A stretch of DNA of 30,411 bases from a virus (taxonomy: Duplodnaviria > Heunggongvirae > Uroviricota > Caudoviricetes), in the IMG/VR virus record IMGVR_UViG_2562617133_000007. The stretch is one strand, 5' to 3'. Each line of letters starts with the position of its first letter. The first letter of the stretch is position 1. This document shows, one piece after another, positions 4,539-23,016 of the stretch. Under the pieces are notes generated by a model that was not told where the DNA came from, made no database searches, and saw only the letters and a program-made list of their open reading frames with translations. A program made the translations under genes and the position numbers.

Positions 4539-5060
4539 TTATTCTTCGAACAATTTTTCGATAGATTTTGTAGGATAGAACAAAGAACGCTCGTTGTTAC
4601 CAACCAGCTGGATAAAGCCTAAACTTTTATAAAACGCCTTGGCTTTGTCATTTAACGCCTCAACGAAAAGTCCATGAATGCCTACAGCAAGAGATGCATT
4701 GTACACAACGCGCATTGCATGTGTTACAAGCATTGAGCCAAATCCTTGACCTTGAAGGGACTTGTCCAAAGCCAGCCTACCCAAAGTAACACTTGGAACA
4801 TTCCGATAAGGAACCTTCTTTTGTTTGCTTCTTGAAGGTAAGGACTCCTTTTCAAAACAACTACCTGACAAAGTGTAATATCCTAACACTTTTGGCCTTT
4901 CTTCTTGAGTGCAAAGCACATAAGCACGAAGAATTTTTCCCTCATGCTGCCTTTTTAAGTGGTTGGCTAAAAAGGCGTTTAGTGACTCTTCGCCGCAATC
5001 AAAACCGTTTAGATCATAATCTTTCTCTCCAGAGAAAATCTCTATCGTTGTATTGCTCAC
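4539..5060 (-). CDS. GNAT-family acetyltransferase toxin (TacT/AtaT/KacT-type)
   Basis: 173 aa with GNAT acetyl-CoA-binding signature (QGQGFGSML ... AKAFYKSLGF). Lies immediately downstream of, and co-oriented with, a DUF1778-like antitoxin ORF. Apparent GTG start. Confidence 0.8.
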   Translation of the reverse strand: MSNTTIEIFSGEKDYDLNGFDCGEESLNAFLANHLKRQHEGKILRAYVLCTQEERPKVLGYYTLSGSCFEKESLPSRSKQKKVPYRNVPSVTLGRLALDKSLQGQGFGSMLVTHAMRVVYNASLAVGIHGLFVEALNDKAKAFYKSLGFIQLVGNNERSLFYPTKSIEKLFEE

Positions 5061-5067
5061 GAGTAAA

Positions 5068-5338
5068 CTACTCCATGCTTTTCAGACGATCAGCAGCTCG
5101 TTTCAGCTTGTCGTTCGGTGCCGGAGGATTGCTTATAGCGTCCATAACCAGATTCCAGGATTCTTCATTCAGAACTAGTCTACGGTGTTGCTCTATAACT
5201 TTCACGGCACGTTCAGATGCACTGCTAACCATAAACTGAGTAATGCTCTGGTTAGACATTGCGGCAGCTTCCTCGATGATGCTTTTATCGTCATCGGTTA
5301 ATCTCAAATCGATGCGCTGCTTTTTTAGTGCTGACATG
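5068..5338 (-). CDS. DUF1778/RHH-type antitoxin partnered with the GNAT toxin
   Basis: Start taken as ATG at 5338 (MSALKKQRIDLRLTDDDKS...) because AGGAGG sits 7 nt upstream on the minus strand. The longer 102-aa track ORF (start 5376) is less likely. Confidence 0.75.
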
Positions 5339-5347
5339 TATTCCTCC

Positions 5348-5375
5348 TGATGGCCGTGATGTAGGAAGGCCATCA
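5348..5375. promoter_or_regulatory. Inverted repeat just upstream of the antitoxin start; candidate TA operator
   Basis: TGATGGCC-N12-GGCCATCA (8-bp perfect arms) directly 5' of the antitoxin RBS on the minus strand. Confidence 0.35.
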
Positions 5376-5655
5376 ATCTCCTCTGTTCAAACTGAGTTTT
5401 CGACTCAAAAATTACTTTAAAAGGCTATAGCCCATTACGTGTGCATTATCAAATTGTGTACGGCATATCACCGTACTTGTAATATAGAGGTCATTGTTAC
5501 TTTTTTCAACAGACAAATACAAGCTATGATTGCCAATTGTTAACCACAACCTACCATTTAACCTTTACACCGTAGCCGTAGGCATTTAGGCTATATCACA
5601 TATAAGAAAACAAGTTGTTTCAGACGATAATAATAGACGCAAAGGGAACTCTCCA

Positions 5656-6324
5656 ATGACCAAGATCTTTGTGGTTGGCGGCACAAAGGGCGGGCCTGGC
5701 AAATCCACCGTTGCCCAGCAAATTGCCGTTTGCCTGAAAGTCAAAAAGAAGAAGAAGGTTTATATCACTGATATAGATATTCAGCGCACGACAACAAGCT
5801 GGTGTGAAGACCGTCGACAGAACGAAGACCTTGAGCTGATTCCTTTTGCATACGTTCAGGATGACATCATTAAGCACCTAAAATCGCTTCAGGGTAGAGC
5901 TGAGTTTGTAGTGGTAGATGCTGGTGGCTTTGACTCCGAAATTCAGCGACAAGCGATGCTGATGGCCGACGTTATCATTATCCCGCTTCGTCCTAAGCGT
6001 CGTGATTTGAAATCTCTGCGTGACATCGATCCTATTATCGACAATGTTCGTAATGTAAACGATAAAGTGAAGGTCCGCGCGGTCATGAACCAGTGCCCGG
6101 CTTTGCCATCACAAGTGTCTCGCATTCTGGCGGCTAAAGAGATTGTTGAGACGTTTGGCATCGAGTCTGCGCCAGTCAATCTATATAACCGCAACGTCTA
6201 TGATGATGCGGAAGAGTCTGGTCGTTCTATCTTTGAAATGACCGGTAGCGAGCGCGACAAAAAGGCGGAAGCCGAGTTTGAAGAATTTGTAGATTATCTG
6301 TTGAGTCTGGAGGAAGAAGAATAA
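5656..6324 (+). CDS. parA: ParA-family partition ATPase
   Basis: Deviant Walker A VVGGTKGGPGKST near the N-terminus; 222 aa; AAGGGA RBS; stop overlaps the start of the downstream small basic protein gene. Confidence 0.85.
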   Translation: MTKIFVVGGTKGGPGKSTVAQQIAVCLKVKKKKKVYITDIDIQRTTTSWCEDRRQNEDLELIPFAYVQDDIIKHLKSLQGRAEFVVVDAGGFDSEIQRQAMLMADVIIIPLRPKRRDLKSLRDIDPIIDNVRNVNDKVKVRAVMNQCPALPSQVSRILAAKEIVETFGIESAPVNLYNRNVYDDAEESGRSIFEMTGSERDKKAEAEFEEFVDYLLSLEEEE

Positions 6325-6683
6325 TGTCCATGAAAATGGGTGACCTAGCAAAGCGCAAAGAGCCTGATGCACCGGCTAAGAACACAACTCCTTTGCGCCA
6401 ACCAGTCAGACCACAGGGACGCCCGACTCGTGGCAAAGAGAAAATTAAAAGCCGCACAATGTCACTGGAGGACGAATACTTCGAACTGCTGGAGATGATG
6501 AAGTTCATCCCTCGCTTCGAGAAGTTCACTCGTTCTGACGTGATTCGTGCTGCTATTTTCCATCTTGCGGAGAAGACACCGCAGGAAATCGAGGACATCG
6601 TGAAACTTAACGAGGCGATCACAGCTGCCGATGTCACGATGCGTACCGATGAAATTAAACGCGAGTTGATGAAGAAAGGGTGA
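6324..6683 (+). CDS. Small centromere-binding partition protein (ParB/ParG-like)
   Basis: 119 aa; basic Pro/Arg/Lys-rich N-terminal tail; start overlaps the parA stop (TAATG). Confidence 0.55.
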   Translation: MSMKMGDLAKRKEPDAPAKNTTPLRQPVRPQGRPTRGKEKIKSRTMSLEDEYFELLEMMKFIPRFEKFTRSDVIRAAIFHLAEKTPQEIEDIVKLNEAITAADVTMRTDEIKRELMKKG

Positions 6684-6685
6684 TT

Positions 6686-6712
6686 ATATTGGGCGTTTGT
6701 TACGCCCAATAT
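6686..6712. repeat. Perfect 11-bp-stem hairpin just after the parB-like stop
   Basis: ATATTGGGCGT-TTGTT-ACGCCCAATAT; no T-run follows. Confidence 0.5.
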
Positions 6713-6734
6713 ATGAGTTGAAGGATAGACACCA

Positions 6735-8441
6735 ATGGAATCGATAGAAGTATTTTTAAAAAATTTTTTGGACTCAGATCATCGGGTTGCTGTCATAAAA
6801 GGAAATTGGGGAGTAGGTAAAACGCATTATTGGAATAGCTTTTATACTAAACATTCTAAAAAATTAGATTTTAATGCATATTCATATGTTTCTTTGTTTG
6901 GAATAAATTCTATTGGAGACATTAAAAAAGCTCTTTATCATTGTGCCACACCAATTAATGAAAAGAAATATAAAGAACTGATTTTATCTGAAACGGATCG
7001 AACTATGATTCGTTATAGAAATGGGTTTTGGGGATGGTTGAAATACAACTCCTTGTCAAAATTTTTAATACATTTTGGAAAGAACGATTTTTTTGGGTTC
7101 AAAACTGATAATCTGCTGTCATCTCTTGAGTATAAATTTGTTAATAATTATTTGGTTTGCATTGATGATATTGAACGAAAAGGTAGTGCGCTAGAAATTA
7201 AAGAGATTATGGGGGTAATTGATGAGTTGGCAAGAAGAAAAAATTGCAAGGTTGTTCTAATATTAAATGAAGATAACTTACATGAAGAAACTGCACAACA
7301 ACAGTTTTTAGAGTATAGAGAAAAAATAATTGATGTGGAAATAAAATACGATCCCACGCCTGAGAAAAACTTAAGAAAAGTTTTTTATGAGACTGACCCT
7401 GATTTTCTTTTGTTAAAAAACCTAGCAAATGATTTAAACATCAAAAACATTAGAATATTAAATAAAATAAAATCATCTCTAGTTATATTTAGAGATGTGC
7501 TAAAGTTAGCAGAGGATAAGGTTAGAGAAAGTTTTATTAATAGATTGGTCTTATTTTCAGTGGTTTACTATTTTGGTGTTCCTAGCGTTGATTATGCTTC
7601 ATTTAAGGAGTCAATCAAAAATATACATGCATTCGACTATATGTTAGATGATAAAGATGAAAAGGAAGAAGTTAACTCTGTATATTCATTTGTTAATAGC
7701 CTTGATATTATTTATGAACGAGCAGAAAGTGCTTTCGATGATGATATAGATTTTTACCTTAAGAACGGTTATGTGTCTTCTGAAAGCAATATTCTAAATA
7801 TAATAAAAGAAAAAAATGAACAATATAGAGATAATAGGGTTTTATGTGAGGTTTATAAAATTTGGGATGTTTTTAGAAACTCTTTTAAAGATAATGAATC
7901 AGAGTTTATTTTTCAAATTGAGCGCGTAATTAACGATAGTCTGTTGCGTATACCAATTGGACAGTTCGTAGGTTTAATAAATGTCCTAATCAAATTGGAT
8001 AGAGATTGTAATAATATTATAGAGGCATATGCAGATGCTTTTGTTAATAAAGACAATGCGTATGCTACATTTAATTCTTTGCGAGTAGAGATCTTCGGAA
8101 ATGAAGAATTAGGTTTCAGAATTGAAAAAAAATTGAAAGATAGAAATCCAGATGACTATAACTTAGATAAAATTATAAAAAAAATAGCTGGTGGAAGATT
8201 TAACCATAGTGATGTGAATATTCTTAACAGTTTTTCTAAAGATGATTACGTAAACTGGATATTATCCTGTGATCAGGATGCTTTGAATTTAGTAGAAGAG
8301 ACTATGCTCAAGTTCAAGGGTATGCAACACCCGACAGACGAACAGAAGAGCATCACTGATAAAGCAATAGAAGCTTTGGAGGAAGTTGCTTCAAAATCAA
8401 CACTTAATAAGCTGCGTGTTAATAAAATACTCAATCATTAA
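6735..8441 (+). CDS. KAP-type P-loop NTPase-like protein (AT-rich cargo gene)
   Basis: 568 aa. Walker A GNWGVGKT at residues ~23-30 and Walker B-like LVCIDDIER about 115 aa downstream. Hand-sampled GC roughly 20-40% versus ~55% in the adjacent parB-like gene. Confidence 0.75.
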   Translation: MESIEVFLKNFLDSDHRVAVIKGNWGVGKTHYWNSFYTKHSKKLDFNAYSYVSLFGINSIGDIKKALYHCATPINEKKYKELILSETDRTMIRYRNGFWGWLKYNSLSKFLIHFGKNDFFGFKTDNLLSSLEYKFVNNYLVCIDDIERKGSALEIKEIMGVIDELARRKNCKVVLILNEDNLHEETAQQQFLEYREKIIDVEIKYDPTPEKNLRKVFYETDPDFLLLKNLANDLNIKNIRILNKIKSSLVIFRDVLKLAEDKVRESFINRLVLFSVVYYFGVPSVDYASFKESIKNIHAFDYMLDDKDEKEEVNSVYSFVNSLDIIYERAESAFDDDIDFYLKNGYVSSESNILNIIKEKNEQYRDNRVLCEVYKIWDVFRNSFKDNESEFIFQIERVINDSLLRIPIGQFVGLINVLIKLDRDCNNIIEAYADAFVNKDNAYATFNSLRVEIFGNEELGFRIEKKLKDRNPDDYNLDKIIKKIAGGRFNHSDVNILNSFSKDDYVNWILSCDQDALNLVEETMLKFKGMQHPTDEQKSITDKAIEALEEVASKSTLNKLRVNKILNH

Positions 8442-8449
8442 TAGATTAT

Positions 8450-8512
8450 GACCTGCTTCCGTATGTATTTAATAAGTTACTTATTATTTGTATATACAGA
8501 AGCAGGTCTTTT
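8450..8512 (+). terminator. Rho-independent terminator candidate after the KAP-like gene
   Basis: GACCTGCTTC ... GAAGCAGGTC perfect 10-bp stem around an AT-rich loop, followed by TTTT. Confidence 0.55.
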
Positions 8513-8622
8513 AAAGACACCCACCAGAACAAGTCCCTTCCGTTTCCACTTCCAAAAACTGCCACCAGTCGCTATCATCCGCTCATTGTGATAAGTAAGT
8601 AACTACCTACCAGGTGAGCCAC

Positions 8623-18261: not shown

Positions 18262-18336
18262 GATGGTGTAGCTCAGCGGTAGAGCAGTTGGCTGTTAACC
18301 AACTGGTCGGTGGTTCGAATCCACCCACCATCGCCA
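18262..18336 (+). tRNA. tRNA-Asn (anticodon GTT)
   Basis: Hand-folded cloverleaf: acceptor GATGGTG/CACCATC, D stem GCTC/GAGC, anticodon stem GTTGG/CCAAC with loop CTGTTAA, T arm GGTGG-TTCGAAT-CCACC, encoded CCA. Confidence 0.85.
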
Positions 18337-18341
18337 ATTTA

Positions 18342-18428
18342 GGGGAGTTAGTCCGTAGAGGTAGCGGTGTAGACTGTAAATCTACTGTCATTGCGACTCG
18401 GGTGGTTCGACTCCATCACTCCCCACCA
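18342..18428 (+). tRNA. tRNA-Tyr (anticodon GTA), type II with long variable arm
   Basis: Acceptor GGGGAGT/ACTCCCC; anticodon stem GTAGA/TCTAC with loop CTGTAAA; T loop TTCGACT; encoded CCA. The D arm folds atypically by hand. Confidence 0.7.
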
Positions 18429-18432
18429 AATT

Positions 18433-18508
18433 GCCGGTTTAGCTCAGTTGGTAGAGCAGTCGCTTTGTAAGCAAATGGCCAGCGGTTCAAGTCCGTTAAC
18501 CGGCACCA
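18433..18508 (+). tRNA. tRNA-Thr-like (anticodon TGT) with a weak anticodon stem
   Basis: Acceptor GCCGGTT/AACCGGC; D arm GCTC-AGTTGGTA-GAGC; T arm AGCGG-TTCAAGT-CCGTT; CCA encoded. The anticodon stem GTCGC/GCAAA pairs at only 3 of 5 positions. Confidence 0.55.
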
Positions 18509-18802
18509 ACATAATATTGAGAACATTGGCGTAACGGGTTCATATCCCAATTTATGAATATAATGTTGCGTTGCAGCGTGACAACCTGTGTTCTCAACAT
18601 TGTGGTGAATGCACAGGCTGATGTGCGACGTAGAAGCAAGCGGATGAACTGCCTGAAGGCCGCTAACGTAGGCAATGCCGGAGATCAGCACCGGCCATCA
18701 CAATTTGGCTCTCTTGCAACAGCATAACGCTGAAATACGTCCAACCTGGTGCGGTCTGATCACCCGCCGTTAGCTCCACGAAACGGAGCACACAACACAA
18801 TT

Positions 18803-18889
18803 GGAGAGTAGGGAGCATGGTGCTCAAGCGGTCTTGAAAACCGTCCCATTGTGCAAACGATGATGGTTCGATTCCATTACTCTCCGCCA
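18803..18889 (+). tRNA. tRNA-Ser (anticodon TGA), type II
   Basis: Acceptor GGAGAGT/ACTCTCC; anticodon stem GCGGT/ACCGT with loop CTTGAAA; long variable arm; T arm GATGG-TTCGATT-CCATT; CCA encoded. Confidence 0.65.
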
Positions 18890-18890
18890 G

Positions 18891-18970
18891 ACACAGCGTT
18901 GAGCGGTTTGGCCTTTTAATCAACCAGATTAAGACTCCGCTAACATAAACCAGACCGCTCAACGCTGTGA
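18891..18970. repeat. Long inverted repeat immediately 3' of tRNA-Ser
   Basis: ACAGCGTTGAGCGGT (18893-18907) and ACCGCTCAACGCTGT (18954-18968) are perfect reverse complements; pairing extends to about 20 bp around a ~40-nt loop. Confidence 0.6.
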
Positions 18971-19043
18971 TAGACAATTACGGCAGACGTTCTTAACCAT
19001 AGCTTGCTAACATCCTAGCAACACTTTTTTCAGCGCAAAATTC

Positions 19044-19066
19044 AAAGGGGCTTCGGCCCCTTTTTT
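19044..19066 (+). terminator. Rho-independent terminator
   Basis: AAAGGGGC-TTCG-GCCCCTTTTTT: GC stem, tetraloop and T-run. Confidence 0.75.
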
Positions 19067-19182
19067 GATTTGTTGACACTTAGTTATATTCACGTATCGT
19101 TTTATCGCTTTGATCCGAGGCAGCGTTAGACTGCCTTCATGTTCCTGATTAGATCGCAGCAGTTAAACATGGAGACAAATTA

Positions 19183-19737
19183 ATGAAGAAGTGCCATCTC
19201 AATATTTTCGCATCTCTAATAATTGCGTTAACACTAACAGGGTGTAACGAATCTGAAATAGATGAATTAACGTTAATAGGCAAAGATAAAAGTGAACTTG
19301 AACAAAATTATAAAGCCCAATTCAAGAAGCTAACACAAAATGTTGAAGTGTTTATTCTTCAAGATAAAAATAGTCCGACTGAAAAAGAACCGCATACGAA
19401 TGGCAACCTGATCGACGGAAAAGTCGAAATGTCATTAACCAGTAATGTTGGTAAGTATACATTCATCCAGATAAGTGAAATGCTGACAAAGGAGTACGGA
19501 AAACCCGTTGCTACAAAAGATCGTGTTTTTAACAGAGAAGCAGTATCTGGCATGGACTGTATTGAAACTAAAACTTGTGGAGCTGGTAAATATTATGAAA
19601 TCTTTCGAGGGAAGGATAGATTGATTATGGTGTCAAACGGTGCCGGTCTTTTACACGAAAAGGAAGGTGTAACACTACTCACCATCACCGATAAACAATT
19701 TAAATTTTCTCGTTTAGAAGAAGATAAAATAAAATAA
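19183..19737 (+). CDS. Lipoprotein of unknown function (AT-rich cargo)
   Basis: Lipobox LTGC in MKKCHLNIFASLIIALTLTGC; 184 aa; GGAGA RBS; AT-rich relative to the backbone. Confidence 0.7.
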   Translation: MKKCHLNIFASLIIALTLTGCNESEIDELTLIGKDKSELEQNYKAQFKKLTQNVEVFILQDKNSPTEKEPHTNGNLIDGKVEMSLTSNVGKYTFIQISEMLTKEYGKPVATKDRVFNREAVSGMDCIETKTCGAGKYYEIFRGKDRLIMVSNGAGLLHEKEGVTLLTITDKQFKFSRLEEDKIK

Positions 19738-19988
19738 TGACAGGGGCGTATACGCCCCTATCTAAAATTTGACATTAAACATATATTGCATCTGGTATCA
19801 GCAATTTTTGTGCGCTATGTAAGTCCTTACCTGCAATCAGTCTCATAAATATCGGATTTTACGTAGCGTACCATCGTTACAGCAAGCATCAAATTATTCA
19901 CTGACATTTATGCGCTGAAAACAGCGTTACTTACCGTAAAATAACAATTTTCAGCGCAAAATTTAAAGAGGCTTCGAATCTGCACAAC

Positions 19989-21317
19989 CTATTGTGCGTA
20001 CTCGCCCAATTTTAATGTTTCACGCTTATATTCATCAACTATCTCACATGATTTAATATAGATATGGCACAATAGGTTATCACTATCATCATTATCGTTT
20101 ATTGCCATAAGTGCCAACTTTTTCTCATATTCATCGATCGCATCACTCAACTGATCACCTGTAATTACATCTGACTCACTCGAGAAATATAACTGCCCAA
20201 GATTTACCGCATTTTTTCCAGTTTTTCTTTGCTCTATGTAATTTTTAATCATATCCTTCACATCCTTTTCACTACTCAGTATTTCACTTTCGAAATGGAC
20301 ATGCTCTGAAATCGACGCGACTCTGCAACCGATCAAACGATGAATATAGTCATCAATAGACGTAACACTATCATTAGCTTTTTTTAGTGCTTCATCAAAA
20401 ATGCTCTTTACCTCATTTGGCAAATTTTTAAAATAATCATCAATTAAACCAGATAATGGTGTTTGGTAGTTCATTAATACCGATGAAGCAACTTGCGGAC
20501 GACGAACCACCCAGATTTCTTTGACTTCAACTTGAGAATAATATTCCTTAATCACGTTCCAAAAGTATTTTAACATCTTGGTTTTAAATATTTTATCAAA
20601 TCTATCCTTTATAAATAGCTCTACTTCAGGCATGCTTGAATAAGCATCATCAAAGAATATTTCATCTTTGAAAAAATCATATTTATTTAATAAAGCATAC
20701 AGTTTTTTTGAATCCAGCGGTTCACGAGAATCGATGTCCAATCCAAAAACTGCAATAACCAACTTCATTTGCGGTGGTATTTTTCCACTCAATTGAATAA
20801 TATATTCCATTTTTTCATCAAAACAATTTCCATCTATGTAAAATCGGTTATCTACATAGACTAATATATTGGTAATATGTTTTATGTACTGAATAACCTC
20901 ATGCTTTCTTACCAATGGATAAAAAAACGAATGCATTTCATTTTTATTAAATTGTTTTTTTGTCTGTTCAATGATTGGTATGACATTATTGTACAACTCA
21001 TCATGCTGATTTAATAAAGTGTCAAACCATTCTTTGAAAGAATTTTTTCTCATCTCAATCAATGAATCGGTAGTTATCCTAACGGCCTCCAGTGCTGCCT
21101 TTGCACTTTTTCTTGCTTCATAGGCGTTCCACGCTGTTGCACAAAAAGCCGCTGTCGTTATAAAACTACTCAATACAGCAATTTGGTCTGTAACCTTCCA
21201 ATCTTGAAATGGCTCAAGTAGTAAACCTAAAAACAAAATTATTATGGAAAACATTAGAATTGCAACAGAAATAAAAACAGGCATGTATGCTCTCGTACTT
21301 ACCATTGTTAGTTGCAT
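19989..21317 (-). CDS. Two-TM membrane protein with large cytoplasmic domain, unknown function (AT-rich cargo)
   Basis: 442 aa; predicted TM helices PVFISVAILMFSIIILFLGLLL and IAVLSSFITTAAFCATAW in the first ~70 residues; remainder Lys/Asp/Glu/Tyr/Phe-rich; strongly AT-rich. Confidence 0.7.
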   Translation of the reverse strand: MQLTMVSTRAYMPVFISVAILMFSIIILFLGLLLEPFQDWKVTDQIAVLSSFITTAAFCATAWNAYEARKSAKAALEAVRITTDSLIEMRKNSFKEWFDTLLNQHDELYNNVIPIIEQTKKQFNKNEMHSFFYPLVRKHEVIQYIKHITNILVYVDNRFYIDGNCFDEKMEYIIQLSGKIPPQMKLVIAVFGLDIDSREPLDSKKLYALLNKYDFFKDEIFFDDAYSSMPEVELFIKDRFDKIFKTKMLKYFWNVIKEYYSQVEVKEIWVVRRPQVASSVLMNYQTPLSGLIDDYFKNLPNEVKSIFDEALKKANDSVTSIDDYIHRLIGCRVASISEHVHFESEILSSEKDVKDMIKNYIEQRKTGKNAVNLGQLYFSSESDVITGDQLSDAIDEYEKKLALMAINDNDDSDNLLCHIYIKSCEIVDEYKRETLKLGEYAQ

Positions 21318-21386
21318 TAAATATTAACTAAATTAAGTTGTGATTAACAGGCAAGTTTACGATGTATTGCAGACATTAAATAGGTT

Positions 21387-21414
21387 TTTACTTACCTATC
21401 TTTTATAGTAATAT
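21387..21414 (+). promoter_or_regulatory. Promoter-like motif (copy 2) upstream of the glutaredoxin gene
   Basis: TTTACT-N16-TAATAT; near-identical to the element at 17499-17525. Confidence 0.35.
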
Positions 21415-21456
21415 TTATTTTCTGGTTAAGTAACACATAATTATTATGAGGTAAAC

Positions 21457-21702
21457 ATGACTATCGTTATCTACGGACGAGATAACTGCTCATATTGCAA
21501 ACGTGCGGTCGAGCTGGCGAAACAACTAAAGGGACACGGCTATGGTGATTATGAGTACATCGACATCACCACTGCCGGTATCGATAAGGAAAAACTTAGC
21601 GAAATTGTTGGCAAACCGGTAGAGACTATCCCCCAGGTACTGATCGATGGCCAACCGATTGGCGGATACACAGAACTGGCTGCATACGTCACCACTCTCT
21701 AA
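21457..21702 (+). CDS. Glutaredoxin (Grx1-like)
   Basis: Active site CSYC near the N-terminus (IYGRDNCSYCKRA) and C-terminal GKPVETIPQVLIDGQPIGGYTE, which I recognise as resembling E. coli glutaredoxin 1. GAGGT RBS. Confidence 0.85.
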   Translation: MTIVIYGRDNCSYCKRAVELAKQLKGHGYGDYEYIDITTAGIDKEKLSEIVGKPVETIPQVLIDGQPIGGYTELAAYVTTL

Positions 21703-21912: not shown

Positions 21913-23016
21913 ATGAAAAATAGCTTTGACAGAGCACGCGCTGCGGAGAACACCTCAAAAGAGGCGATAGAGTATCTCGAAAGAGCATCTCAAATGCAGG
22001 CCGTTATGATCTCCCAGGTCAGCAATGACATGAGATTCTCGGACGCATTCATGTTATTCACTCGCTTATCTCTGCTGATAACCAGACGTCGGCCAGAGAT
22101 CGCTGTTCATTGTATTTTGATACATGTTTTGCCGCACATTGCCGATGTAAAAGTAAGTGACATTAATAGGTTCATGGTGAACCAACTGGTCAACCCACTA
22201 ATACTGGATGGCAAAATTGTTATGGGCCGCCGCGTTTTCTCTCTGATGAAGCAGTTCCTTAGCTGGTGCGCCTTCCAGGGGATGATAGACGTGTCACCGT
22301 TAAACGATATGTCACTTAACAAAGTTGCCGGTGGCGCAAAGCCCACACCTCGCGAGCGGAAGCTGACCGACGCAGAGGTATGGGTGTTCTGGAATATATG
22401 GGACTACTTCAATGTGTGCGCTGGTACAAAATGGGCGGCCAGGCTATGTCTTGTATCCGCAAGACGACCTGACGAAGTACTGCGGGCTAAAAAAAGTGAG
22501 TTCAATCTTAAGCGTGGGGTTTGGAATCAAGGCAAGAGGAACAAATCTGCCCGTGAGCATTCTCTGCCTTTAAGCTCATTAATGCGCACTTGTATTGAAG
22601 AGTTGTTCGAATATGGTAAAGACAGCCAGTGGCTCGTGCCTTCGAATAAAAAAATCGGGAAAGACCTTCCTATGTCTAAAGTGGCAATAGCCCAGGCATT
22701 ACGTCGTATTCTGGAACGACCAGAACTGATGGAGCTTGAGCCATTTACACCCCGAGATTTGCGCCGTACTGCGCGTAGTTACTTCCCAGCATTAGGCATA
22801 AGCCAGGAGGTATCACGTAAAATCATGAACCACAGTCTTGAGGGGATAGATCGGGTCTACGACCGGCACGATTATATGGACGAGATGCGAGACGCCTTAG
22901 AAAGTTTCTCGACGTACATCGCATCAATCGTAGAGCAACCGGATTTAGACGAAATTGACCACAAATTTAAGGGAGATCGTCTATCAACAGAGCTTATTCG
23001 TGTAAATTTTTCATAG
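21913..23016 (+). CDS. Tyrosine recombinase (integrase or resolvase)
   Basis: C-terminal catalytic signature: SARRPDE (box I Arg), RDLRRTARSY, NHS and RVYDRHDY (Tyr nucleophile region). No obvious N-terminal arm-binding domain. Confidence 0.75.
   Translation: MKNSFDRARAAENTSKEAIEYLERASQMQAVMISQVSNDMRFSDAFMLFTRLSLLITRRRPEIAVHCILIHVLPHIADVKVSDINRFMVNQLVNPLILDGKIVMGRRVFSLMKQFLSWCAFQGMIDVSPLNDMSLNKVAGGAKPTPRERKLTDAEVWVFWNIWDYFNVCAGTKWAARLCLVSARRPDEVLRAKKSEFNLKRGVWNQGKRNKSAREHSLPLSSLMRTCIEELFEYGKDSQWLVPSNKKIGKDLPMSKVAIAQALRRILERPELMELEPFTPRDLRRTARSYFPALGISQEVSRKIMNHSLEGIDRVYDRHDYMDEMRDALESFSTYIASIVEQPDLDEIDHKFKGDRLSTELIRVNFS

What the first reader, a model, noticed from the sequence alone, without database searches (positions are those of the whole stretch)
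6686..8512. AT-rich, hairpin-bounded KAP-type NTPase cassette between partition and replication modules: candidate defence or exclusion gene
Seen in sequence: a single 568-aa gene with Walker A GNWGVGKT and, about 115 residues later, LVCIDDIER. Its composition (hand-sampled about 20-40% GC) differs sharply from the flanking parB-like gene (about 55%). It is bracketed by a perfect 11-bp-stem hairpin (6686-6712) and a 10-bp-stem hairpin plus T-run (8450-8512). Established knowledge: KAP NTPases have a Walker B followed by an acidic-Arg pair, and many family members sit in defence islands. Inference: a horizontally acquired single-gene moron, plausibly an abortive-infection or exclusion NTPase that may be uncharacterised.
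Basis: partly seen in the sequence, partly recalled or inferred. Interest (0 to 1): 0.75.

Follow-up and report, generated by a model that had tools for sequence, protein, structure and literature searches.

The report
Candidate anti-phage KAP NTPase cargo gene
A lone, AT-rich gene for a KAP-type P-loop NTPase sits in a swap-in/swap-out slot of an SSU5-like phage-plasmid of E. coli where relatives carry known or candidate anti-phage genes, so it is most likely an untested member of a known class of single-gene phage-defence proteins.

Summary
ORF 6735-8441 encodes 568 aa with GNWGVGKT and LVCIDDIER. Its GC is 29.5% against 47-50% in the flanking genes, and both hairpins are real.

The window is an SSU5-like phage-plasmid. 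The gene passes Pfam KAP_NTPase and matches the untested PADLOC candidate PDC-S49 and PHROG 4740 (function unknown).

Comparison with relatives and an empty site sets the variable segment at 6685-8444. The left hairpin travels with the cargo. The right palindrome (8450-8508) is conserved backbone, so the gene is not a hairpin-bounded cassette.

About 11% of E. coli elements with this backbone carry the gene, in two alleles. Others carry PD-T4-3 (a validated defence gene), DUF2971/PDC-S31, unknown genes, or nothing. Klebsiella and Salmonella relatives hold 39-44% identical homologues at the same site. Other homologues lie in the GpA-portal defence hotspot of P2-like prophages and next to a prophage repressor.

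The predicted structure is an AAA+/STAND-like NTPase plus an alpha-solenoid C-terminus, with no membrane helices and no recognisable effector fold.

Verdict: a probable single-gene defence or exclusion protein that works like PifA. It is a new member of a known kind. Function and mechanism are untested.

The parts
5656..6324 (+). parA-type partition ATPase (backbone, left flank)
   Evidence: Pfam MipZ, AAA_31, CbiA and ParA hits. It is 82-89% identical in protein to the Klebsiella and Salmonella SSU5-like elements.
6324..6683 (+). 119-aa 'parB-like' gene (backbone). Its stop codon, 6681-6683, marks the left edge of the variable slot.
   Evidence: PHROG 5111, E 1.5e-79. Only a weak ribbon-helix-helix-type hit in NCBIfam. 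It is 90-91% identical in the Klebsiella and Salmonella elements. Similarity to relatives stops at 6684.
6685..8444 (+). Variable cargo segment: left hairpin, ribosome-binding site and KAP gene.
   Evidence: BLAST breakpoints against phage Cyrano, PhiR41_1 and SSU5 fall at 6684/6685 and 8445-8451. The empty site in pCMZE123_2 joins the parB stop almost directly to the backbone palindrome.
6685..6713 (+). Cargo-linked stem-loop (12-bp perfect stem, 5-nt loop) directly after the parB-like stop. Read as a terminator or attenuator of the par operon; it lacks a proper U-tract here.
   Evidence: It is identical in allele 2 although the neighbouring bases differ. Most other cargo variants have a different GC-core hairpin at the same position (none was seen in SSU5 itself). 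The Salmonella KAP variant has a canonical GGCGCC-ACAC-GGCGCC-T6 terminator there.
6720..6725 (+). Shine-Dalgarno-like GAAGGA, 9 nt before the ATG.
   Evidence: Read from the sequence. No sigma-70-like promoter was found on the + strand between 5557 and 6914.
6735..8441 (+). KAP-family P-loop NTPase gene, 568 aa.
   Evidence: The exact protein is on 79 public contigs and is named only 'P-loop NTPase fold protein'.
6735..7508 (+). N-terminal NTPase domain (about residues 1-258), including a low-confidence insert at residues 97-125 between Walker A and Walker B.
6801..6824 (+). Walker A GNWGVGKT (residues 23-30).
   Evidence: G23, W25, G26, G28, K29 and T30 are invariant in 36 homologues.
7152..7178 (+). 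Walker B plus acidic-Arg pair, LVCIDDIER (residues 140-148).
   Evidence: C142, D144, D145, E147 and R148 are invariant. The motif aligns with FIVVMDDLDR of F-plasmid PifA.
7509..8438 (+). C-terminal all-helical, alpha-solenoid-like domain (about residues 259-568). Proposed sensor or specificity domain.
8450..8508 (.). Conserved backbone palindrome with an AT-rich loop, followed by CTTTT. It is the right edge of the slot and is probably a bidirectional terminator or insulator ahead of the replication module.
   Evidence: Present with every cargo type and in the empty site. Fold z -6.9 on the + strand and -7.7 on the - strand.
8614..9363 (+). 249-aa backbone gene (PHROG 2500, function unknown) preceding the DnaB-like helicase (9407-10747) and primase (10757-12010).

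Best explanation
The gene is a horizontally exchanged, single-gene anti-phage (or anti-mobile-element) defence or exclusion determinant. An SSU5-like phage-plasmid carries it in a cargo slot between the par operon and a conserved palindromic terminator.

Shown here:
- It is a KAP-family P-loop NTPase with intact, invariant Walker A, Walker B-(E)R and YREK motifs.
- It is under purifying selection.
- It is interchangeable at this site with validated and candidate defence genes.
- Its relatives occupy known prophage defence hotspots.

Inferred:
- In the plasmid-prophage state the gene is transcribed at a low level by read-through of the stem-loop after the par operon.
- The C-terminal alpha-solenoid domain recognises a component of an infecting phage.
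- That recognition switches the NTPase, probably with oligomerisation as in AAA+/STAND proteins.
- The activated protein blocks phage development, either by abortive infection with membrane or energy collapse as described for the TM-less KAP protein PifA, or by a non-abortive block as reported for Enterococcus KAP proteins.
- No separate effector domain is recognisable, so the NTPase-solenoid assembly itself would be the effector.
For: Family:
- Pfam KAP_NTPase at 26 bits against a cut-off of 20.
- PADLOC PDC-S49, E 2e-21.
- The motifs align with PifA.
- Invariant catalytic residues in 36 homologues.

Functional constraint:
- dN/dS between the two E. coli alleles is 0.09-0.28.

Variable slot:
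- 28 of 263 E. coli genomes with this backbone carry the gene.
- An empty site exists.
- Alternative cargo at the same site includes PD-T4-3 (E 1.6e-23) and PDC-S31/DUF2971 (E 3e-41).
- PD-T4-3 is independently reported in SSU5-type elements (10.1101/2025.09.12.675607).

Same slot in other genera:
- The Klebsiella and Salmonella elements hold 39-44% identical homologues, while backbone proteins are 82-93% identical.

Homologues elsewhere:
- 4 of 25 sampled genomic loci lie between GpA and the portal/terminase of P2-like prophages. This is the known P2 defence hotspot (PMC13586616).
- One homologue sits next to the S24 repressor of a Pseudomonas prophage.
- Others sit beside GajA/OLD, GmrSD and AbiJ-type genes.

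Other support:
- The gene has lower GC than its flanks in all five different homologue contexts checked.
- Single-gene KAP NTPases have been shown experimentally to defend against phages: EF_KAP and three others (PMC12632615) and Reve (PMC13586616).
Against: - There is no phenotype for this protein or its family. PDC systems are explicitly untested candidates.
- The PDC-S49 match covers only residues 3-347 of 568.
- No effector fold and no membrane segment were found.
- Several chromosomal homologues sit alone among housekeeping genes.
- PADLOC hits among near neighbours were not more numerous than among far neighbours (187 against 212 families), and I had no genome-wide baseline.
- No promoter of its own was detected.
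Confidence: 0.6

Rival explanations
1. It is an accessory factor for partition or replication of the phage-plasmid. In this reading an initiator- or loader-like AAA+ ATPase acts with the neighbouring par or DnaB/primase modules.
For: The gene lies between the par and rep modules and is probably co-transcribed with parAB. The best structural matches of the NTPase domain are DNA-bound AAA+ proteins: Cdc6/Orc1, TnsC, MuB and clamp loaders.
Against: About 89% of E. coli elements with the same backbone lack the gene. Some have an empty site or unrelated cargo such as a GIY-YIG PD-T4-3 homologue. Homologues occur as lone chromosomal genes and in P2-like prophages that have no such par/rep modules. 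The structural matches are generic to the AAA+/STAND fold, at 8-16% identity.
Confidence: 0.05
2. It is an exclusion or incompatibility weapon aimed mainly at competing phage-plasmids or plasmids rather than at lytic phages.
For: The gene is carried by a plasmid-prophage. Within the plasmid collection (PLSDB), the near-full-length relatives are mostly on SSU5-like elements of about 110 kb. Strongly diverged alleles at one site (39-77% identity) would fit competition among related elements. The precedent is F-plasmid PifA.
Against: There is no direct evidence. The family is also common in chromosomes and prophages of many phyla that lack SSU5-like elements. The other cargo at this slot, PD-T4-3, was found as an anti-lytic-phage gene.
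Confidence: 0.12
3. It is cargo with some other role: counter-defence, lysogenic conversion, or a signalling NTPase unrelated to conflict between genetic elements.
For: The function is unknown in every database: PHROG 4740 'unknown function', no NCBIfam model, and the name 'P-loop NTPase fold protein'. Several homologues have no defence neighbours. No effector domain is present.
Against: Both identifiable alternatives at this slot are defence-type genes. Homologues lie in the P2 GpA-portal defence hotspot. KAP single-gene proteins tested so far are defensive.
Confidence: 0.18
4. It is a decaying or silenced passenger with no current function.
For: Its GC is very low (29.5%), which in enterobacteria often means H-NS silencing (established knowledge; not tested here). 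No promoter of its own was found.
Against: The reading frame is intact in all full-length copies examined. Catalytic motifs are invariant across phyla. dN/dS is 0.09-0.28. There are 547 clusters (50% identity) at E <= 1e-30; the best-scoring ones listed are mostly full length.
Confidence: 0.03

Closest known systems
PifA of the F plasmid (KAP NTPase that excludes phage T7)
   Same: Both are plasmid-borne, single-polypeptide KAP NTPases without transmembrane helices. Both share GxWGxGKT, hhhhDDx(D/E)R and Y-x-(E/Q)-K motifs and have a long C-terminal extension. PifA is described as causing membrane leakage and abortive infection (cited in PMC13001434).
   Different: Only the NTPase domain aligns, at 17% identity (hhalign E 2e-4, probability 47%). 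PifA is 741 aa and sits in the pifC-pifA operon, and there is no pifC here. The C-terminal domains are unrelated at sequence level.
PADLOC phage-defence candidate PDC-S49
   Same: It is the best defence-database match (E 2e-21), it is a single-gene system, and it has a similar length (profiles of 619-629 positions).
   Different: The match covers only residues 3-347 of the protein and profile positions 8-346 of 624. PDC systems were predicted by 'guilt by embedding' and are untested.
Enterococcus and gut-metagenome KAP NTPase defence proteins (EF_KAP and three others; PMC12632615)
   Same: They have a KAP NTPase followed by a C-terminal region of about 300 aa with no known domain. They are single genes, and the Walker B motif is required for defence.
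   Different: EF_KAP has two N-terminal transmembrane helices and this protein has none. Similarity to an Enterococcus plasmid KAP-type protein (not shown to be EF_KAP itself) is limited to about 200 N-terminal residues at about 24% identity. EF_KAP was reported not to act by abortive infection.
Reve (single-gene ATPase/KAP defence system from P4 satellite hotspots; PMC13586616)
   Same: It is a single KAP-type gene carried in the hotspot of a mobile element of Enterobacteria, and it gave experimental protection.
   Different: Reve is described as not recognised by PADLOC, whereas this protein hits PDC-S49. No chromosomal E. coli copy of this gene was found at DNA level.
STAND/Avs-type NTPase sensors and Tmn (YobI family)
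   Same: The overall logic is the same: a P-loop NTPase switch joined to a helical-repeat sensor. Weak structural matches were found to a STAND-TPR protein, Avs4, NLRs and RdrA.
   Different: The nSTAND3 hit is below its cut-off (19.6 against 27.2 bits). There is no N-terminal effector domain, no transmembrane insertion, and no PADLOC hit to Tmn or Avs models at E <= 1.

Membership tests
KAP family P-loop NTPases (Pfam PF07693) | Profile match above the curated gathering score | tested here: met
   26.0 bits against a cut-off of 20, E 6.6e-6, residues 18-258 on profile positions 22-282 of 293. Nearly all of the 120 listed homologues carry precomputed PF07693.
KAP family P-loop NTPases (Pfam PF07693) | Walker A of the GxWGxGK[ST] type, and Walker B hhhhDD followed by an acidic-Arg pair | tested here: met
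   GNWGVGKT (residues 23-30) and LVCIDDIER (residues 140-148) are invariant in the family. They align with GAWGSGKT and FIVVMDDLDR of PifA. That these motifs are the family signature rests on my own knowledge of Aravind et al. 2004, which is not held in the library.
KAP family P-loop NTPases (Pfam PF07693) | Transmembrane segments inserted in or next to the NTPase domain (typical of the family, but absent in PifA) | tested here: not met
   No 19-residue window exceeds Kyte-Doolittle 1.6. The insert at residues 97-125 is low-confidence and not hydrophobic enough. PifA also lacks such segments (PMC13001434), so this feature is not obligatory.
PADLOC PDC-S49 (candidate single-gene defence) | Full-length match to the PDC-S49 profiles | tested here: inconclusive
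   E 2.1e-21, but only residues 3-347 of 568 match profile positions 8-346 of 624. The two other models match in pieces. I could not run PADLOC's own coverage rules.
Pif system (PifA with PifC) | Orthology to PifA and the presence of the pifC repressor gene | tested here: not met
   Only the NTPase domain aligns, at 17% identity. F plasmid did not appear among the 45 spread-sampled rows of the tblastn plasmid hits at E <= 1e-3 (149 records in all, so it cannot be fully excluded). The upstream gene here is the parB-like gene, not pifC.
Tmn / YobI-family transmembrane NTPases | Two transmembrane helices inside the P-loop domain, and a Tmn profile match | tested here: not met
   No hydrophobic segment. 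PADLOC at E <= 1 returns only PDC-S49.
STAND NTPases (Avs-like) | STAND NTPase profile above its cut-off, and an N-terminal effector domain | tested here: not met
   nSTAND3 scores 19.6 bits against a cut-off of 27.2. Walker A starts at residue 23, which leaves no room for an N-terminal effector.
PHROG 4740 (phage protein family, function unknown) | Full-length profile match | tested here: met
   E 2.2e-165, residues 1-567 on profile positions 3-625 of 627.
Anti-phage defence system (functional class) | Reduction of phage infection on expression, dependent on the NTPase motifs | not testable with these tools
   Only contextual evidence is available: the hotspot cargo, prophage hotspots, and relatives of validated KAP defences.

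The most novel reading that the evidence does not exclude
The family could be a one-protein immune sensor with no separate effector, in which the KAP NTPase itself does the damage. After its alpha-solenoid domain recognises a phage component, it might drain NTPs or assemble on DNA. DNA assembly is suggested by its closest structural neighbours (Orc1/Cdc6, TnsC, MuB) and could block replication of the invader. The slot after parB would then be a previously undescribed defence hotspot of SSU5-type phage-plasmids, including those of epidemic Shigella sonnei.
Probability: 0.15. Interest if true: 0.7.

Novelty: new member of a known kind. Interest (0 to 1): 0.45.

Why it matters
SSU5-type phage-plasmids are common in E. 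coli, Klebsiella, Salmonella Typhi and drug-resistant Shigella sonnei. Allele 2 of this gene is on 928 public contigs.

A defence gene on such an element would shape which phages, including therapeutic ones, can infect these hosts, and which mobile elements can coexist with it.

The family is large (547 clusters at 50% identity, many phyla) and has no assigned function. One phenotype would therefore annotate many genes. It would also add a TM-less, effector-less example to the newly validated KAP class of defence proteins, whose mechanism is still open.

The slot between the parB-like gene and the conserved palindrome is a usable marker for finding further cargo. At least two cargo types there have no recognisable family.

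Tried and rejected
- Rfam scan of 6300-8900: nothing near a gathering score, so the hairpins are not a known RNA family.
- Sequence-profile search of PDB chains: only a spurious hit, citramalate synthase at E 0.13.
- NCBIfam: no model for the protein.
- Transmembrane prediction by hydropathy: negative.
- Direct comparison with PifA: distant, NTPase domain only.
- Literature search for 'PDC-S49': no paper.
- The Reve sequence could not be obtained because no supplements are held.
- Aravind et al. 2004 is not held.
- The DefensePredictor preprint does not mention KAP.
- Near-versus-far neighbour scan with PADLOC: intended to measure defence-island enrichment. It gave similar counts (187 against 212 families) and has no genome baseline, so I treat it as uninformative beyond the individual strong hits.
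- Positive selection as the cause of C-terminal divergence between alleles: rejected. dN/dS stays below 0.3 and dS itself triples along the gene, which points to a mosaic origin or recombination.
- A cassette bounded by its own inverted repeats (integron- or transposon-like): rejected. The right palindrome is backbone, the two hairpins are unrelated in sequence, and no recombinase is adjacent.
Full report
**What is there**

The window is part of an SSU5-like phage-plasmid of E. coli. It is identical over the queried 2 kb stretch to the plasmids MF554642.1 and NZ_CP151018.1. It is collinear with Salmonella phage SSU5, Escherichia phages Cyrano, PhiR41_1 and CMS-2020a, and Klebsiella relatives.

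The gene order is: endolysin and spanins, a KacT-type toxin-antitoxin pair, parA (5656-6324), a 119-aa parB-like gene (6324-6683), the gene in question (6735-8441), a 249-aa gene, a DnaB-like helicase and a primase.

The ORF, both motifs and both hairpins are exactly as described. The gene has 29.5% GC (GC3 23.9%) against 47-50% in the four neighbouring genes. The only numerical slips are small:
- The parB-like gene is 49.7% GC, not about 55%.
- The left stem is 12 bp, not 11 bp.

**Where the cargo begins and ends**

Similarity to Cyrano, PhiR41_1 and SSU5 stops at 6684, one base after the parB-like stop codon. It resumes at 8445-8451, a few bases after the KAP stop codon.

One E. coli plasmid (pCMZE123_2) has an empty site. 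There the parB-like stop is followed after about 27 nt by the same long AT-loop palindrome that lies at 8450-8508 in the window. That palindrome is present with every cargo type and in the Klebsiella and Salmonella elements. It is therefore backbone and not an end of a cassette.

The left stem-loop (6685-6713) is cargo-linked:
- It is identical in the second E. coli allele although adjacent bases differ.
- Most other cargo types have a different GC-core hairpin at the same place; none was apparent in SSU5 itself.
- In the Salmonella KAP variant that hairpin is a textbook intrinsic terminator.

I read it as the terminator or attenuator of the par operon, which is exchanged together with the cargo. 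No sigma-70-like promoter lies between parA and the gene. Low-level read-through transcription in the plasmid state is therefore the likeliest mode of expression; this is an inference.

**A variable slot filled with defence-type genes**

The parA-to-rep backbone occurs in 263 of 5,426 complete E. coli genomes, and always on plasmids. Of these, 28 carry the KAP gene: 7 with this allele at 99% identity or more, and 21 with a second allele at about 84% nucleotide and 76-77% protein identity.

The other elements carry one of the following at the same site:
- a LEM-3-like GIY-YIG protein that matches the validated defence gene PD-T4-3 (E 1.6e-23);
- a DUF2971 protein that matches candidate PDC-S31 (E 3e-41; also found in Cyrano and SSU5);
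- a 352-aa unknown protein;
- a pair of unknown proteins of 250 and 140 aa;
- an IS1 insertion;
- nothing.

A 2025 survey independently lists PD-T4-3 among the defence systems of SSU5-type elements. It used DefenseFinder, which does not call this gene.

The Klebsiella and Salmonella SSU5-like elements hold KAP homologues at the same site. These are only 39-44% identical to the window protein, while ParA, the parB-like protein, the 249-aa protein and DnaB are 82-93% identical. The slot has therefore been refilled with different members of one family, or the gene has diverged much faster than its carrier.

**The protein**

- It passes Pfam KAP_NTPase, matches PADLOC PDC-S49 over its first 347 residues, and matches PHROG 4740 (function unknown) over its full length.
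- NCBIfam has no model for it, and public records name it only 'P-loop NTPase fold protein'.
- In 36 homologues, invariant residues cluster in Walker A (G23, W25, G26, G28, K29, T30), Walker B and the following pair (C142, D144, D145, E147, R148), a YREK..D motif (residues 194-200) and N238/R240/K244. N178 is nearly invariant at the end of the fourth strand, the position of an AAA+ sensor-1. Calling R195 an arginine finger and R240 a sensor-2 is inference.
- The three N-terminal motifs line up with those of F-plasmid PifA. Nothing else does (17% identity, NTPase domain only).
- The AlphaFold2 model is confident (pLDDT 83.9) except for residues 97-125, which lie between Walker A and B where classical KAP proteins carry membrane segments. 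Hydropathy shows no membrane helix.
- The two E. coli alleles are about 93% identical in the NTPase domain and about 55% identical in the last 200 residues. dN/dS stays at 0.09-0.28, while dS rises from 0.31 to 0.98 along the gene. This indicates a constrained, functional gene with a mosaic, faster-diverging C-terminal domain, as expected for a specificity module.

**The family elsewhere**

A full scan of 1.84 billion representative proteins finds 547 clusters at E <= 1e-30; the best-scoring ones listed are mostly full length at about 530-630 aa. GTDB species genomes give 341 loci, in Gammaproteobacteria, Cyanobacteria, Desulfobacterota, Verrucomicrobiota, Bacteroidota, Chloroflexota and one archaeal MAG.

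The gene is always solitary, with no conserved partner. In all five different contexts examined it has lower GC than its surroundings, by 6-19 points.

Among 25 sampled loci, four lie between the replication gene GpA and the portal, terminase and scaffold genes of P2-like prophages. That interval is the principal defence hotspot of P2-like phages (PMC13586616). A Pseudomonas homologue lies beside the S24-type repressor of a prophage. Others adjoin GajA/OLD-type, GmrSD and AbiJ-type genes.

A near-versus-far neighbour comparison gave no gradient and lacks a baseline. I therefore rely on the specific contexts and not on an enrichment statistic. Some homologues sit among housekeeping genes.

**How it most likely works**

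Single-gene KAP NTPases are now an experimentally supported kind of phage defence:
- PifA excludes T7 with membrane leakage.
- EF_KAP and three metagenomic KAP proteins protect Enterococcus in a Walker-B-dependent way, and they carry C-terminal regions of unknown fold.
- Reve, from P4 hotspots, protects E. coli.

By architecture and context, this protein fits that kind. The best-supported model has four elements:
- low constitutive expression from the resident phage-plasmid;
- recognition of an invader's component by the alpha-solenoid domain;
- NTP-dependent switching or oligomerisation of the KAP domain;
- arrest of the infection.

Whether the arrest is abortive (PifA-like) or not (EF_KAP-like) cannot be decided here, and no effector domain is visible.

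I give the defence or exclusion reading about 0.6, plus about 0.12 for a version aimed mainly at rival plasmids or phage-plasmids. A role in partition or replication is unlikely, because most elements with the same backbone do without the gene.

**Novelty and verdict**

The sequence is public. The family is catalogued as an untested PADLOC candidate and a PHROG of unknown function. The class, KAP single-gene defences, is already known. This is therefore a new, uncharacterised member of a known kind.

The modestly new points are:
- the definition of a cargo slot between the parB-like gene and a conserved palindrome in SSU5-type phage-plasmids;
- recurrent occupation of that slot by very divergent members of one KAP family;
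- the effector-less, TM-less architecture.

Its picture of a hairpin-bounded cassette does not.

Noticed in passing
window 19000-21500: A second AT-rich island (GC 29-37%) lies just after a four-tRNA cluster and before a glutaredoxin-like ORF (21457-21702) and a tyrosine-integrase-like ORF (21913-23016). It holds a 184-aa lipoprotein-like ORF (19183-19737, +) and a 442-aa ORF with hydrophobic N-terminal helices (19989-21317, -). Neither hits PADLOC. It may be a second cargo or defence slot.
   Followed up: partly
window 18262-18889: tRNA genes Asn(GTT), Tyr(GTA) and Thr(TGT) lie in a tight cluster, with Ser(TGA) 300 nt further on. They are followed by a 20-nt, 95% inverted repeat at 18892-18969.
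   Followed up: no
window 4539-5376 (- strand): A 173-aa GNAT-type ORF and a 102-aa ORF sit upstream of parA. In phage Cyrano the equivalents are annotated as KacT acetyltransferase toxin and antitoxin. PADLOC gives no hit.
   Followed up: partly
window 8450-8508, and the same site in L001, L003, L004, L009, L011-L014 and L019: The long palindrome with an AT-rich loop is conserved across the E. coli, Salmonella and Klebsiella SSU5-like elements, whatever the cargo. Some base differences convert Watson-Crick pairs to G-U or G-T pairs. It could be more than a terminator, for example a site related to the downstream replication module.
   Followed up: partly
L001 about 2584-2620, L012-L014 about 1228-1270, L009 about 5958-5990, L019 about 2944-2980: Nearly every cargo variant carries its own, unrelated GC-core hairpin immediately after the parB-like stop codon, whichever strand the cargo gene is on. 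Exchange therefore seems to occur with a breakpoint right at the stop codon. The recombination mechanism is unknown.
   Followed up: partly
window 6324-6683: The 'parB-like' protein has no ParB domain. Its only hit is a weak ribbon-helix-helix-type match at residues 54-79, which suggests a ParG-like centromere-binding protein. Its annotation as 'RelE/ParE putative toxin' in phage Cyrano looks wrong.
   Followed up: partly
protein P0007 (allele 2, 76% identical): The second allele is recorded on 928 public contigs, many from Shigella sonnei. SSU5-type elements are reported to be linked to drug-resistant S. sonnei lineages.
   Followed up: no
L013 1289-2347 (-), and L014 1280-2032 and 2025-2447 (+): Three further cargo proteins at the same slot (352, 250 and 140 aa) have no Pfam family and no convincing PADLOC family. 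They are candidates for unknown defence genes.
   Followed up: partly
L012 1-51: In one relative, an InsQ/TnpB-family RNA-guided endonuclease gene sits immediately upstream of parA.
   Followed up: no
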